In this document: piece by piece, positions 30,038-33,387 of the stretch
Layout: the number at the start of each line of letters is the position of its first letter
How positions within the stretch are numbered: position 1 is the stretch's first letter
Sequence record: PZ445530.1
Reading direction: 5' to 3' (one strand)
DNA length: 64,000 nucleotides
DNA from: a phage
Notes under the pieces: model-generated
Seen by the model: only the letters and a program-made list of their open reading frames with translations
Told to the model about the DNA's origin: nothing
Databases searched by the model: none
Position numbers and translations under genes: made by a program

Positions 30038-31362
30038 ATGAGTAAAACCAAATTAGAACTTACCTGGATAGGTAAAAACGAGCGCAAAAAGTTAGAGCCG
30101 CACATTTTGTTAGAAGATTCTAGCAAGTCTTACCACAGCCAGAAAGTGACCGAAAACGATATTTTTGATAATAAACTGATTTTTGGAGATAACTTATTAG
30201 CATTGAAGGCGCTAGAGCAAGAGTACGCAGGCAAAGTGAAGTGTGTTTACATAGACCCACCATTCAACACCGGGAGGGCTTTTGAGCACTACGATGATAG
30301 CCTGGAGCATTCCATTTGGCTGGGCTTAATGAGGGATAGGTTAGAAATAATTCGTAATCTTCTAAGTGATGATGGGGTAATATTCGTTCACTTAGATGAT
30401 TGCGAAATGGCGTATTTAAAAGTTTTGATGGACGAGATTTTTGGTCGTGCAAATCAGTTAAATACCATATCGATGACCACAAATTCCCCTTCGGGATTTA
30501 AGGCAACGGGAGCCACAGTTTTCTCCACAGCAAACTTTTTGCTTGTATATGCAAAAGATCGCACCCAGAAACCGCTTAACAAAATCTATATACCTAAAGG
30601 GTATGATACCGGATATAACAAATACCTATTAAACCCGGATGATCATTATAAAAATTGGACGTGGTGCGGTATTGCCGATGCGTTTGCAAAGGCCAATGGC
30701 TATAAAGATGCAAAAGAAGCCAAGAAAAAACTGCCTGACACATTCGATAATGAATTAGCACAATTTGCAATTGATAATGCAGAACGTGTATTTCAATCTG
30801 TTGCAATTGGTGGTGGTGCTAAAATAAAGAGAAAAGAAACTATAGAGAAGTCAAAGAAAGATAGGGATAAGGTTTATGTACATCCAAATGAGGATGTTGA
30901 AGGATTTTATATCGCAAATGGTAGGCAAATGGTCTTTTACTCCAACAGGCTTTTGGAAATTGACGGTGATATGCAACCTGCGGAACTAATAACTGATGTT
31001 TGGACAGACATTAGTTGGAATGGAATAGCAAATGAAGGCGGCGTTAGTTTCAAAAATGGGAAAAACCAGAAGCGCTTTTGAAGCGGATTTTCGAAATGTG
31101 TACGCGAGAAGGTGATTTGGTATTGGATTCATTCGGTGGTTCGGGAACTACTGCCGCTGTAGCTCACAAGATGAAAAGACGTTGGATCTCCATCGAGATT
31201 GGTGATCATTGCCATACCCATATTATTCCGCGCTTGGAAAAAGTGATCGATGGGGAAGATCAAGGTGGTATTTCTAAGTCTGTAAACTGGCAAGGTGGTG
31301 GTGGCTTCCGTTATTACAAACTTGCCCCGACCTTAATTGCGAAAGATAAGTCTGATCAATAA
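30038..31362 (+). CDS. beta-class DNA amino-methyltransferase (N6A/N4C type), reading frame interrupted by a frameshift near 31048-31062
   Basis: Motif IV VYIDPPFN in frame A; conserved KPEALLKRI...GDLVLDSFGGSGTT (motif I) continues only in frame B; frames swap within an A-rich tract. Confidence 0.6.
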
Positions 31363-31375
31363 AGAGTACAATCAA

Positions 31376-31681
31376 ATGATGAAACGTTATAAACCATACA
31401 CTTTTGAAATCGATTTCGAACTTGACGATATGTTCACTGTAGAAGCTCAGGCAGTTGTCCAGTTGCCAGACCCGGAGTGCCGTGATTCTGATGTTGACTA
31501 TTACGGATTTAGACAGATCACTGATGTGCATGTTTACCACAACGGTGAAGAGGTGGACTTCCACCAACTGCCAAACGATATTCGCCACTCAATTTACAAA
31601 CGTGCAGCCCGTGAACTAGAGTCCTATCTGGATGCAGCGACGACAGCAGCTGCATTTGCCGAAGAAGTGGGAGGTTTCTGA
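31376..31681 (+). CDS. hypothetical protein (101 aa)
   Basis: ATG at 31376 in track ORF frame. Confidence 0.45.
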   Translation: MMKRYKPYTFEIDFELDDMFTVEAQAVVQLPDPECRDSDVDYYGFRQITDVHVYHNGEEVDFHQLPNDIRHSIYKRAARELESYLDAATTAAAFAEEVGGF

Positions 31682-32076
31682 TGATTACAGGTGTGAAGAT
31701 TCTCCAATACCACTTAACCAAATTGGAAGATGCTGAAAAAGAGCTTGCAGAAGTTCTGAATAGTGGATATACTTTGCTATCATGCGCCTGCTCAGACACC
31801 TACGTTGTGTGGACACTTATCCGGAAGGAAGAGCCTGCAGGGATCTTGGTGCCAAACCCTAAGATTATTAGTGAGGTGGATGACTATTCCCAGGACGGCC
31901 TGCCAGAAGGCTGGGAAGTATGGGAAGGTGGTGAAAACCCTGCACCAGGTAAGTGGGTAAAATACAAACTACGTAGTGGTGCACAGTACGCTGACTACTC
32001 TGATGACCTAGACTGGAGTCATTCTTCACCAGGATCATCTGCAAGTTCATATGATATCGTTGCTTTTCAGGAATAA
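31681..32076 (+). CDS. hypothetical protein (131 aa)
   Basis: RBS gggagg; ATGA overlap. Confidence 0.5.
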   Translation: MITGVKILQYHLTKLEDAEKELAEVLNSGYTLLSCACSDTYVVWTLIRKEEPAGILVPNPKIISEVDDYSQDGLPEGWEVWEGGENPAPGKWVKYKLRSGAQYADYSDDLDWSHSSPGSSASSYDIVAFQE

Positions 32077-32088
32077 GGAGAGGGTGTT

Positions 32089-32571
32089 ATGTCAGATTTT
32101 ATGTGGAAAGTAGGCTATGCCACTCCTGAAATGTGCGAGGCTTGCTTTGTGAAAATAGGCCGCGAGGATATCGACAAAGTGATCCTTAAGTTTCGTGATG
32201 TGACTGTGATCGGCAACCGAGTGCTTAAGCACTTAAAGAATCTGAAGCTCACCAAAAAGAAGTTCTTCGGGCTTTTCGAAGAGAAAGTTGATGCTTGGAC
32301 CCATTGCATTCAGGAAGCTAAATCTCACTACAGTGCTATCGTTACTCCAGAACGGGCAGCTAAGATGGAAGGATTCATTAACAGCACAGAATTTGAGTGT
32401 CTGAAAGCTGCACTCGATAGTTATCCGAAATGCCTTAAGCACTTGGACAAGTATGCAGAAAAGGATGGGGAAATGTATCTAACCCTGGACGCATATTATG
32501 AGATGCAAGAAATTTTAAATTTAGATTTGACATTGGTATCCACCGAGTATACAATAGGTATCCGGGTTTAA
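32089..32571 (+). CDS. hypothetical protein (160 aa)
   Basis: RBS aggagagg before ATG. Confidence 0.5.
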   Translation: MSDFMWKVGYATPEMCEACFVKIGREDIDKVILKFRDVTVIGNRVLKHLKNLKLTKKKFFGLFEEKVDAWTHCIQEAKSHYSAIVTPERAAKMEGFINSTEFECLKAALDSYPKCLKHLDKYAEKDGEMYLTLDAYYEMQEILNLDLTLVSTEYTIGIRV

Positions 32572-32577
32572 CACTAG

Positions 32578-32604
32578 GCCCTGCCCGAAAGGGTGGGGCT
32601 TTTT
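32578..32604 (+). terminator. intrinsic terminator (copy 1 of a repeated terminator)
   Basis: GCCCTGCCC-GAAA-GGGTGGGGC hairpin followed by TTTTT; identical element at 43565-43592. Confidence 0.6.
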
Positions 32605-32622
32605 GCATTAGGAGACAGCAAA

Positions 32623-33387
32623 TTGAAATTTATCTACAAAGAACACTACCACAAAGGTGTTGTGTGGAGTCTATTTGACGGGTCTGGTGGTGCAGTCATT
32701 GACTGGGCAAAAGCTGGGTACCTGTGCCTGTGCTTTAATGCAGAAGGCGCTGATCACGGCAGTTATGCAGAGGTGATCACCGATCATCCCAACATTCACT
32801 ATGTGGACTATTGGATCGACCCGTGGTTCCCTCAGGAAACTTTTTGCATGTATCCGGCTCCAGATTTTATTCTTGCATTTCCTCCGTGCACGCATTTAGC
32901 GGTATCAGGTGCTGCACATTTTAAGAAAAAGCTGGCTAAGGACCCCATGATCCAAATTAATGCTGTAAAGGATGCTCGGGTTGCGGAAGAGCTGGGAGAG
33001 ATTTACGATTGCCCGTGGCATGTAGAGAATCCTGTGGGTGTTATGTCCACACTGTGGCGCAAACCTGATTACCGTTTTCACCCTTCGGATTATGGCGGGT
33101 ATTTACCGGAAGATGATGTAAACCCATGGTTTCCTGAATTTATAGCTCCACGTGATGCCTATCCAAAAATAACTTGCGGCTGGATAGGTAATGGATTTAT
33201 AATCCCAGCCACAAAACCTGTCCCGCAAATAGTTGACGCGGTTAGCGGGTATTCCATGCAACACGCCAAGCTGGGTGGAAAGAGTGCAAGAACGAAGATG
33301 ATTCGAAGCCTCACACCACGTGGCTGGGCAAAAGCCGTATTCCTAGCAAACGAGCCTGTAGTAAGGAGCAGAATTAATGGGAAGTAA
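32623..33387 (+). CDS. C5-cytosine DNA methyltransferase-like protein (compact, non-canonical)
   Basis: TTG start 7 nt after AGGAGA; motif I-like SLFDGSGG, motif IV-like FPPCTHLAVSGA (Gln replaced by Thr), motif VI-like HVENPVG in canonical order. Confidence 0.45.
   Translation: MKFIYKEHYHKGVVWSLFDGSGGAVIDWAKAGYLCLCFNAEGADHGSYAEVITDHPNIHYVDYWIDPWFPQETFCMYPAPDFILAFPPCTHLAVSGAAHFKKKLAKDPMIQINAVKDARVAEELGEIYDCPWHVENPVGVMSTLWRKPDYRFHPSDYGGYLPEDDVNPWFPEFIAPRDAYPKITCGWIGNGFIIPATKPVPQIVDAVSGYSMQHAKLGGKSARTKMIRSLTPRGWAKAVFLANEPVVRSRINGK

What the first reader, a model, noticed from the sequence alone, without database searches (positions are those of the whole stretch)
32623..33387. Compact C5-cytosine methyltransferase-like protein with altered catalytic motif
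Motif I-like SLFDGSGG, motif IV-like FPPCTHLAVSGA (Cys retained, canonical Gln replaced by Thr) and motif VI-like HVENPVG occur in canonical order within only about 254 aa, leaving little room for a target-recognition domain. Could be a minimal Dcm-like enzyme or one repurposed for another C5 chemistry.
Basis: partly seen in the sequence, partly recalled or inferred. Interest (0 to 1): 0.5.

Follow-up and report, generated by a model that had tools for sequence, protein, structure and literature searches.

The report
Compact phage Dcm-like cytosine methyltransferase
This gene of an rV5-like coliphage encodes a very small DNA cytosine-C5 methyltransferase from a large phage family that is already annotated and has one studied member, so the finding is real but ordinary.

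Summary
Window 32623-33387 (+) is a 254-aa ORF with a TTG start and an AGGAGA Shine-Dalgarno. It carries SLFDGSGG, FPPCTHLAVSGA and HVENPVG in that order. The window is an rV5-like Vequintavirus. The same gene is annotated 'Dcm-like C5 cytosine methyltransferase' in BASEL phage MaxBurger. It matches PHROG 757 'DNA methyltransferase' (E 3e-87) and has homologues in about 1500 phage records.

A 54%-identical relative, the Dcm of phage K42/KarlJaspers, carries the same motifs. It was reported to raise 5mC on retron Ec86 msDNA and to trigger that defence. The segment between motif VIII and motif X is 45 residues, against 138 in M.HhaI, so the enzyme really is nearly TRD-less.

The target sequence has never been mapped directly, and the rV5 orthologue is untested. 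I found no support for a repurposed chemistry. Verdict: already known, low interest.

The parts
32623..33387 (+). CDS of the compact Dcm-like C5-cytosine DNA methyltransferase (254 aa, TTG start, TAA stop). Its last 11 nt overlap the ATG (33377) of the primase/helicase gene.
   Evidence: Orthologue bas54_0074 is annotated 'Dcm-like C5 cytosine methyltransferase'. PHROG 757 E 3.4e-87. AF2 pLDDT 92.8.
32610..32615 (+). Shine-Dalgarno AGGAGA, 7 nt upstream of the TTG start
   Evidence: Read directly from the sequence.
32576..32604 (+). Terminator-like G+C-rich hairpin plus T-run between the upstream ORF (ends 32571) and the methyltransferase gene. It contains the in-frame GTG 32593, which is therefore unlikely to be the start.
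   Evidence: (11-pair stem, 7 GC pairs). This is a consensus match only; function is not shown.
32527..32555 (+). Sigma-70-like promoter match TTGACA-17-TACAAT (11 of 12) at the 3' end of the upstream ORF
   Evidence: This is a consensus match only.
32668..32691 (+). Motif I (AdoMet-binding loop), SLFDGSGG, residues 16-23
   Evidence: PF00145 profile positions 4-94 align to this N-terminal half in relatives that pass the Pfam threshold.
32878..32913 (+). Motif IV, FPPCTHLAVSGA, residues 86-97. Cys89 is the predicted catalytic nucleophile, and Thr90 replaces the usual Gln.
   Evidence: C89 is invariant in 81 of 81 and T90 is Thr in 73 of 81. It equals C82 of K42 Dcm, which was mutated in the dead quadruple mutant. 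It aligns to the PC of E. coli Dcm and M.HhaI.
33019..33039 (+). Motif VI, HVENPVG, residues 133-139. Glu135 is the predicted general acid for cytosine N3.
   Evidence: E135 and P137 are invariant and N136 is Asn in 78 of 81. It equals E128 of K42 Dcm. It aligns to the ENV of E. coli Dcm.
33154..33183 (+). Motif-VIII-position block DAYPKITCGW, residues 178-187 (D-x-Y-x-K in place of Q-x-R-x-R)
   Evidence: Y180 and W187 are invariant, and K182 is Lys in 80 of 81. The spacing Glu135 to Lys182 is 46 residues, against 45 for E119 to R165 in M.HhaI. K182 equals K176 of K42 Dcm. The equivalence to R165 is an inference.
33193..33270 (+). Short, poorly conserved loop (residues 191-216), the only stretch in the place of a target-recognition domain
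   Evidence: Mean conservation is 0.36, with gaps in most relatives at about residues 207-211. AF2 shows mostly coil with one short helix.
33301..33342 (+). Motif-X-like block IRSLTPRGWAKAVF, residues 227-240, which starts the long C-terminal helix
   Evidence: R228 is Arg in 79 of 81, S229 is Ser in 74 of 81 and P232 is Pro in 77 of 81. Rare relatives read IGSITPPGFSEAVY, which resembles the canonical IGNAVPPxLAxAI. Helix 233-251 in the model. The assignment is an inference.

Best explanation
The gene encodes an active, AdoMet-dependent DNA cytosine-C5 methyltransferase of the compact, nearly TRD-less 'Dcm-like' phage family (PHROG 757). It is an orphan enzyme encoded in the replication module of an rV5-like Vequintavirus, directly ahead of the primase/helicase gene.

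The proposed mechanism is the classical one. Cys89 (motif IV, FPPCT) attacks C6 of a flipped-out cytosine. Glu135 (motif VI, ENP) protonates N3. Lys182 takes the place of the motif VIII arginine at O2. The methyl group then passes from AdoMet, held by motif I (FDGSGG) and the motif-X-like helix, to C5.

The product, 5mC on phage DNA and on any accessible host DNA, would mask sites from 5mC-sensitive restriction enzymes. As a side effect it can be sensed by defences such as retron Ec86/Eco1.

Shown here: the ORF, the motifs, their conservation, the fold and the family membership. Inferred by homology: catalytic activity, from a 54%-identical relative reported to raise 5mC. Unknown: the target sequence. 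CCWGG has been assumed in the literature but never mapped. How a roughly 26-residue loop could specify a site is also unknown.
For: - Family membership: PHROG 757 'DNA methyltransferase' E 3.4e-87. Homologues occur in 1504 phage records, many named DNA cytosine methyltransferase or Dcm. The orthologue is annotated 'Dcm-like C5 cytosine methyltransferase'.
- Sequence link to the superfamily: 42 of 71 relatives match PF00145 at E<=1, and three relatives pass the gathering score at 24.7-28.5 bits.
- Catalytic residues: invariant or nearly so in 81 relatives of 32-54% identity.
- Characterised relative: 54% identity (E 2e-86) to KarlJaspers Dcm. Its C82, E128 and K176 correspond to C89, E135 and K182 here. 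For the K42 enzyme, whose phage genome is 95.4% identical to KarlJaspers, escaper phages disrupt dcm, the wild type but not the C82A/E128A/K175A/K176A mutant raises 5mC on msDNA by LC-MS, and it triggers retron Ec86 (bioRxiv 10.1101/2023.08.16.553469; published as Wang et al., Cell Rep 43:114857).
- Domain fusion: relative P0261 is fused to a D12 Dam-type DNA adenine methyltransferase.
- Genomic context: the gene sits among DNA replication genes.
Against: - There is no experiment on the rV5-type protein itself.
- The window protein gives no PF00145, NCBIfam or PDB sequence hit.
- Profile-profile comparison with E. coli Dcm or an M.HhaI family profile aligns only motif IV, with probability below 1%. 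The homology therefore rests on structure prediction and on weak transitive Pfam hits.
- The motif II acidic residue, Asp in 76 of 81 relatives, is Asn39 here. K42/KarlJaspers Dcm also has Asn.
- CCWGG specificity is an assumption of the K42 study. Its host MG1655 is dcm+, yet msDNA had little 5mC without the phage enzyme. The phage enzyme may therefore differ from host Dcm in site, substrate or dose.
- BASEL reports Vequintavirinae as exceptionally susceptible to RM systems. For Drexlerviridae it found no simple link between methyltransferase genes and restriction resistance (PMC8594841). A protective role is thus unproven.
- CCWGG counts in the window are uninformative: z -0.6 or -2.7 depending on the null model.
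Confidence: 0.8

Rival explanations
1. It is an active C5-methyltransferase, but its target is not Dcm's CCWGG. It might recognise a shorter or relaxed site, or recognise DNA as a DNMT3-like dimer. The 'Dcm-like' label would then be a misnomer. This is a variant of the best explanation rather than a contradiction of it.
For: No TRD similar to Dcm/EcoRII exists. Only a roughly 26-residue variable loop occupies that place. The closest solved structures are DNMT3A/B, which have a minimal TRD and are known to act as oligomers. The K42 study did not map sites, and host Dcm in MG1655 did not produce the same msDNA methylation.
Against: Mutating CCTGG in the msDNA stem-loop abolished Ec86 defence against K42. 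Most of the likely DNA-facing blocks are strongly conserved across the family, which argues for one shared specificity. There is no direct evidence for any other site.
Confidence: 0.3
2. It is a carboxymethyltransferase or another non-methyl C5 transferase like phage CmoX. It would use Cx-SAM made by the host CmoA to install 5-carboxymethylcytosine.
Against: The CmoX criteria are SPPC plus Arg at the N304 position. Here the motif is FPPC, and by the motif-X alignment the N304 position is Ser229. No CmoA or amide ligase gene is nearby. The K42 homologue, with an identical IRSLTPRG block, raised 5mC in vivo. That LC-MS looked only for 5mC, so 5cxmC was not excluded.
Confidence: 0.03
3. It is a catalytically dead or non-DNA enzyme: a DNA-binding remnant, or an RNA/tRNA m5C methyltransferase like DNMT2.
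Against: Cys, Glu and Lys are invariant across the family, as expected under selection for catalysis. The DNA enzymes DNMT3B, CmoX and HhaI score higher than DNMT2. The K42 homologue has the same substitutions, and a catalytic-site mutant loses both msDNA methylation and retron triggering. One relative is fused to a Dam DNA methyltransferase.
Confidence: 0.05
4. The motifs are a chance resemblance on an unrelated fold.
For: The window protein has no direct Pfam hit.
Against: The high-confidence model matches C5-methyltransferases first in two independent structure searches. The motifs are conserved in more than 2000 clusters of relatives. Relatives pass the PF00145 threshold.
Confidence: 0.01

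Closest known systems
Phage K42 / KarlJaspers (Bas06) 'Dcm', the compact Dcm-like phage C5-methyltransferase family (PHROG 757)
   Same: The two proteins are 54% identical over the full length (E 2e-86). Size is similar (236 vs 254 aa). They share FPPCT, ENPVG, the Y-x-K-x-TC-x-W block and the IRSLTPRG block. Both are orphan genes in lytic coliphages.
   Different: The window protein has 9 extra N-terminal and about 10 extra C-terminal residues. K175 of K42 is Pro181 here. The host phage is a 136-kb myovirus rather than a 51-kb Drexlerviridae siphovirus. Activity and retron triggering are untested for the rV5-type protein.
E. coli Dcm / M.EcoRII (classical CCWGG C5-methyltransferases, PF00145)
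   Same: Same superfamily and same order of motifs I, IV and VI. PC and EN align in register. The same reaction is presumed.
   Different: Dcm has 472 aa with an N-terminal extension and a large TRD. It has PCQ, ENV, QxRxR, and motifs IX and X (RRLTPRE..., FGNSV). No TRD similarity is detectable. hhalign aligns only motif IV. There is no vsr partner gene here.
Mammalian DNMT3A/DNMT3B catalytic domain
   Different: Sequence identity is only 12-17%. DNMT3 enzymes are eukaryotic, CpG-directed, regulated by ADD/PWWP domains, and active as DNMT3L-containing or homo-oligomers. The oligomeric state of the phage enzyme is unknown.
M.HhaI (archetypal bacterial C5-methyltransferase)
   Different: M.HhaI has 138 residues (TRD plus motif IX) between R165 and N304, against 45 here. 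It has PCQ rather than PCT, RxR rather than YxK, and GN rather than RS in motif X.
CmoX, phage DNA cytosine C5-carboxymethyltransferase (PDB 8yf3)
   Different: CmoX is defined by SPPC and Arg350 at the HhaI-N304 position, and it usually sits beside cmoA and an amide ligase. Here the motif is FPPC, the N304 position is Ser229, and no such neighbours exist.

Membership tests
C5-cytosine methyltransferase superfamily (Pfam PF00145) | Class I Rossmann-like methyltransferase fold of the C5 type | tested here: met
C5-cytosine methyltransferase superfamily (Pfam PF00145) | Motif I F-x-G-x-G (AdoMet binding) | tested here: met
   F18-D-G20-S-G22-G23. It aligns to LFAGIGG of E. coli Dcm and to PF00145 positions 4 onward in relatives.
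C5-cytosine methyltransferase superfamily (Pfam PF00145) | Motif IV Pro-Cys nucleophile | tested here: met
   P88-C89. Cys is invariant in 81 of 81. It aligns to the PC of Dcm and HhaI. The following Gln is Thr, a family hallmark (73 of 81).
C5-cytosine methyltransferase superfamily (Pfam PF00145) | Motif VI E-N-V glutamate | tested here: met
   E135-N136-P137. Glu and Pro are invariant. It aligns to the ENV of Dcm.
C5-cytosine methyltransferase superfamily (Pfam PF00145) | Motif VIII Q-x-R-x-R | tested here: not met
   The corresponding block reads D178-A-Y180-P-K182. Lys (80 of 81) stands where spacing predicts R165. This is a functionally plausible substitution, but not the canonical motif.
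C5-cytosine methyltransferase superfamily (Pfam PF00145) | Target-recognition domain between motifs VIII and IX, and motif IX | tested here: not met
   Only 45 residues lie between K182 and R228, against 138 in HhaI. There is a variable loop of about 26 residues and no recognisable motif IX.
C5-cytosine methyltransferase superfamily (Pfam PF00145) | Motif X (G-N-x-V-P...) helix closing the AdoMet site | tested here: inconclusive
   The IRSLTPRGWAKAVF block precedes the C-terminal helix. Rare relatives read IGSITPPGFSEAVY, which resembles IGNAVPPxLAxAI. There is no residue-level structural alignment to confirm this.
C5-cytosine methyltransferase superfamily (Pfam PF00145) | Score above the Pfam gathering threshold | tested here: not met
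   The window protein has no hit. Relatives P0055, P0071 and P0072 pass at 24.7-28.5 bits against a cut-off of 22, and 42 of 71 match at E<=1.
C5-cytosine methyltransferase superfamily (Pfam PF00145) | AdoMet-dependent formation of 5-methylcytosine in DNA | not testable with these tools
   Reported only for the 54%-identical K42 enzyme.
Compact phage 'Dcm-like' methyltransferases (PHROG 757) | Full-length match to the family profile | tested here: met
   E 3.4e-87, residues 10-261 of the 264-aa ORF against profile positions 3-226 of 247.
Compact phage 'Dcm-like' methyltransferases (PHROG 757) | Family signature blocks FPPCT, ENP, DxYxKxTCxW and RSxTPRG in a protein of about 210-270 aa | tested here: met
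   All are present in the window protein. Family lengths are 209-270 aa with median 237.
E. coli Dcm / EcoRII-type CCWGG methyltransferases | Homologous TRD and CCWGG specificity | tested here: not met
   The TRD part is not met: hhalign and local alignments find no TRD similarity. The specificity part cannot be tested with these tools.
CmoX C5-carboxymethyltransferases | SPPC motif plus Arg at the HhaI-N304 position, usually with cmoA and ligase neighbours (PMC12783734) | tested here: not met
   The motif is FPPC (F86 in at least 90% of relatives). Ser229 stands at the inferred N304 position, with Arg at -1. No CmoA or ligase lies among the neighbours. The alignment of motif X is an inference.

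The most novel reading that the evidence does not exclude
The compact family, this protein included, may recognise DNA in a way no studied bacterial C5-methyltransferase does. Conserved core loops (the GGYLPEDD...PRDAY block and the short 191-216 loop) would do the reading, perhaps as a DNMT3-like dimer. The site specificity would then differ from the CCWGG that the 'Dcm-like' label assumes. No methylome of any member was found in the papers searched, so this is not excluded.
Probability: 0.25. Interest if true: 0.45.

Novelty: already known. Interest (0 to 1): 0.2.

Why it matters
As a finding it adds little. The gene is already annotated as a Dcm-like C5 methyltransferase in rV5-like phages, and a family member has been studied.

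The residual value is practical. Phage cytosine and adenine methyltransferases are now known triggers of retron defences (Ec86/Eco1, Asa1, Squ1). The presence of this gene therefore predicts which defences may sense rV5-like therapeutic phages.

The family is also the smallest C5-methyltransferase architecture seen here, about 210-270 aa. Mapping its specificity and solving a DNA complex would show how a site can be read almost without a TRD, which may be useful for enzyme engineering.

Tried and rejected
Sequence searches that gave nothing useful:
- Pfam and NCBIfam scans of the window protein gave no relevant hit.
- phmmer and a family-profile hmmsearch against PDB sequences gave only a motif I fragment of M.HaeIII at E 1, then nothing.
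- hhalign of the family profiles against E. coli Dcm, M.HhaI and a 20-sequence M.HhaI/Dcm profile aligned only motif IV, with probability below 1%.
- A local hmmsearch of the family HMM against Dcm and HhaI aligned motifs IV to VI in register, but at insignificant scores.
- The homologous-protein search with M.HhaI returned only relatives of 71% identity or more, so it did not give a diverse classical profile.

Inferring the target site from word statistics failed. CCWGG is at the expected frequency under an order-2 model (z -0.6) and mildly depleted under a maximal-order Markov model (z -2.7, rank 12 of 112 palindromes). This is inconclusive.

Literature searches found no methylome or 5mC data for Vequintavirinae or for the family's specificity. 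The published Cell Reports version of the K42 study is not held.

The CmoX-like and TET-coupled hypermodification readings were rejected on motif and neighbourhood grounds.

A residue-level structural superposition was not possible, because the tools return no coordinates or alignments.

Full report
**Observation**

The + strand carries an ORF ending at 33387. The mechanical ORF begins at GTG 32593. That codon sits inside a G+C-rich hairpin followed by a T-run (32576-32604), which looks like the terminator of the upstream gene. The TTG at 32623 is preceded at 7 nt by AGGAGA (32610-32615) and is the start used for the GenBank orthologue.

SLFDGSGG (residues 16-23), FPPCTHLAVSGA (86-97) and HVENPVG (133-139) are present in that order. 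The stop overlaps the ATG (33377) of a 692-aa primase/helicase gene.

**Identity of the window and of the gene**

The region is 98-99% identical to rV5-like Vequintavirus coliphages. In BASEL phage MaxBurger the orthologue (bas54_0074, 765 nt) is annotated 'Dcm-like C5 cytosine methyltransferase'. Other records call it DNA cytosine methyltransferase, site-specific DNA methylase or hypothetical protein.

The protein matches PHROG 757 'DNA methyltransferase' at E 3.4e-87. tblastn finds homologues in 1504 phage records. These include Escherichia, Klebsiella, Salmonella and Vibrio phages, the linear-plasmid prophage phiKO2, and phapecoctaviruses.

An exhaustive HMM search finds 2114 clusters at 50% identity with E<=1e-3. 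Most of the best 150 are 200-260 aa long. The gene thus belongs to a large, already named phage family.

**Is it a C5-methyltransferase?**

Direct sequence evidence is weak:
- The window protein has no PF00145, NCBIfam or PDB sequence hit.
- Profile-profile comparison with E. coli Dcm or an M.HhaI family profile aligns only motif IV.

Transitive and structural evidence is strong:
- 42 of 71 close relatives hit PF00145 at E<=1.
- Three relatives pass its gathering score (24.7-28.5 bits against 22), over motifs I-IV.
- The AlphaFold2 model is confident (pLDDT 92.8, pTM 0.91).
- Foldseek against the PDB returns only C5-cytosine methyltransferases in its top 50. Forty-nine are DNMT3A/3B/3C catalytic domains and one is a prophage enzyme, with E down to 6e-7.

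**Anatomy and conservation**

I compared 81 relatives of 32-54% identity (A3). The conserved positions are:

| Position | Conservation |
|---|---|
| C89, E135, P137, Y180, W187 | invariant |
| K182 | 80 of 81 |
| N136 | 78 of 81 |
| T90 | 73 of 81 |
| R228 | 79 of 81 |
| S229 | 74 of 81 |

The Thr that replaces the canonical Gln of PCQ is therefore a hallmark of the family and not a lesion.

Spacing compared with M.HhaI:

| Segment | This protein | M.HhaI |
|---|---|---|
| Motif VI Glu to K182 / R165 | 46 residues | 45 residues |
| K182 to R228 / R165 to N304 | 45 residues (family median 41) | 138 residues |

From the first row I infer that the block D178-x-Y180-x-K182 stands for Q-x-R-x-R. 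The second row shows that the TRD and motif IX have been reduced to a short stretch. Only residues 191-216 of it are variable.

The conserved C-terminal block IRSLTPRGWAKAVF precedes the last long helix. A few relatives read IGSITPPGFSEAVY, which resembles the canonical motif X, IGNAVPPxLAxAI. I therefore assign this block to motif X, with Ser229 at the position of HhaI N304. This is an inference with no structural superposition behind it.

**Function by homology**

KarlJaspers (Bas06) Dcm is 54% identical over the full length (E 2e-86). Its C82, E128 and K176 correspond to C89, E135 and K182 here.

The preprint 10.1101/2023.08.16.553469 was later published as Wang et al., Cell Rep 43:114857, according to the reference list read. 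It studied the dcm of phage K42, whose genome is 95.4% identical to KarlJaspers. It reports:
- Escapers of retron Ec86 disrupt this 711-bp gene.
- A C82A/E128A/K175A/K176A mutant is inert.
- LC-MS shows high 5mC on msDNA only with the wild-type enzyme.
- 34 of 35 Ec86-sensitive phages encode such a Dcm.

This makes an active 5mC-forming DNA methyltransferase the most likely function of the window protein. A natural fusion of the compact domain to a D12 Dam-type methyltransferase (P0261) and the location in the replication module agree with a DNA substrate.

**What remains open**

The CCWGG site was taken over from E. coli Dcm in that study and not mapped. The supporting experiment is loss of defence when CCTGG in the msDNA stem-loop is mutated. 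The host MG1655 has its own Dcm, yet gave low msDNA methylation.

I found no 5mC methylome for any member of the family or for any Vequintavirus. CCWGG frequency in the window is uninformative.

BASEL reports Vequintavirinae as exceptionally susceptible to restriction-modification systems. For Drexlerviridae it found no simple link between methyltransferase genes and resistance. The benefit to the phage is therefore unproven.

**Alternative chemistry**

Here the motif is FPPC and the inferred N304 position is Ser229, although Arg228 is adjacent. The neighbouring genes are a split N6-adenine methyltransferase, three small proteins of unknown function and the primase/helicase. None is a CmoA, TET or glycosyltransferase. 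The K42 enzyme, with an identical IRSLTPRG block, raised 5mC. I put this reading at about 3%.

**Verdict**

The gene is an already annotated member of a known and partly characterised family. The 'altered catalytic motif' is normal for that family. Interest is low. The only open questions are the unmapped specificity and the way a nearly TRD-less enzyme reads DNA.

Noticed in passing
window 30038-31362 (+), A-run at 31061-31065: The upstream N6-adenine DNA methyltransferase gene (PF01555) is an intact 1326 nt in phage MaxBurger. In the window it is split into two ORFs (30038-31081 and 31078-31362) by a 1-nt deletion in an A-run (A6 to A5). Pfam profile positions 1-177 fall in the first ORF and 171-217 in the second. 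A paper on the Vequintavirinae phage Bas51 reports that its N6-adenine methyltransferase methylates GATC and triggers retrons Asa1 and Squ1, and that escaper phages mutate it (PMC12548924). The frameshift could therefore be a natural loss of function, or it could be a homopolymer sequencing error. I did not verify orthology to the Bas51 gene.
   Followed up: partly
window 32527-32604 (+): A near-consensus sigma-70-like promoter (TTGACA-17-TACAAT, 11 of 12) lies at the end of the upstream ORF. It is followed within about 20 nt by a terminator-like hairpin and then by the Shine-Dalgarno and TTG start of the methyltransferase gene. A transcript from this promoter would carry the hairpin in its 5' leader. 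Whether the hairpin terminates upstream transcription, attenuates, or stabilises the mRNA is unknown.
   Followed up: no
window 31337-32571 (+): Three small conserved ORFs lie between the two methyltransferase genes (PHROGs 4240, 11995 and 12900, all of unknown function). The first also gives a weak hit to a PHROG named 'DNA methyltransferase' (phrog_1573, E 3.6e-5).
   Followed up: no
public records, e.g. MG065661.1; 16 records: Sixteen records labelled 'Campylobacter phage', with host Campylobacter jejuni written in 15 of them, match this rV5-like coliphage region in the megablast search, which finds DNA of roughly 85% identity or more. One of them (phage C9, MG065661.1) encodes a methyltransferase 98.5% identical at protein level. 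This suggests mislabelled or contaminant records.
   Followed up: no
proteins P0261; BFVD A0A6J5SE15 and A0A6J5NPY6: The compact C5-methyltransferase domain also occurs fused to other modules. These are a D12 Dam-type adenine methyltransferase (563 aa) and very large proteins of uncultured Caudovirales (1126 and 1397 aa, one named helicase/UvrB N-terminal).
   Followed up: no
whole window: GTAC (123 observed against 199 expected, z -7.0) and CTAG (z -6.0) are the most avoided short palindromes in the window. Several 6-bp sites (TGGCCA, GGCGCC, GCTAGC, CCCGGG) are absent.
   Followed up: no
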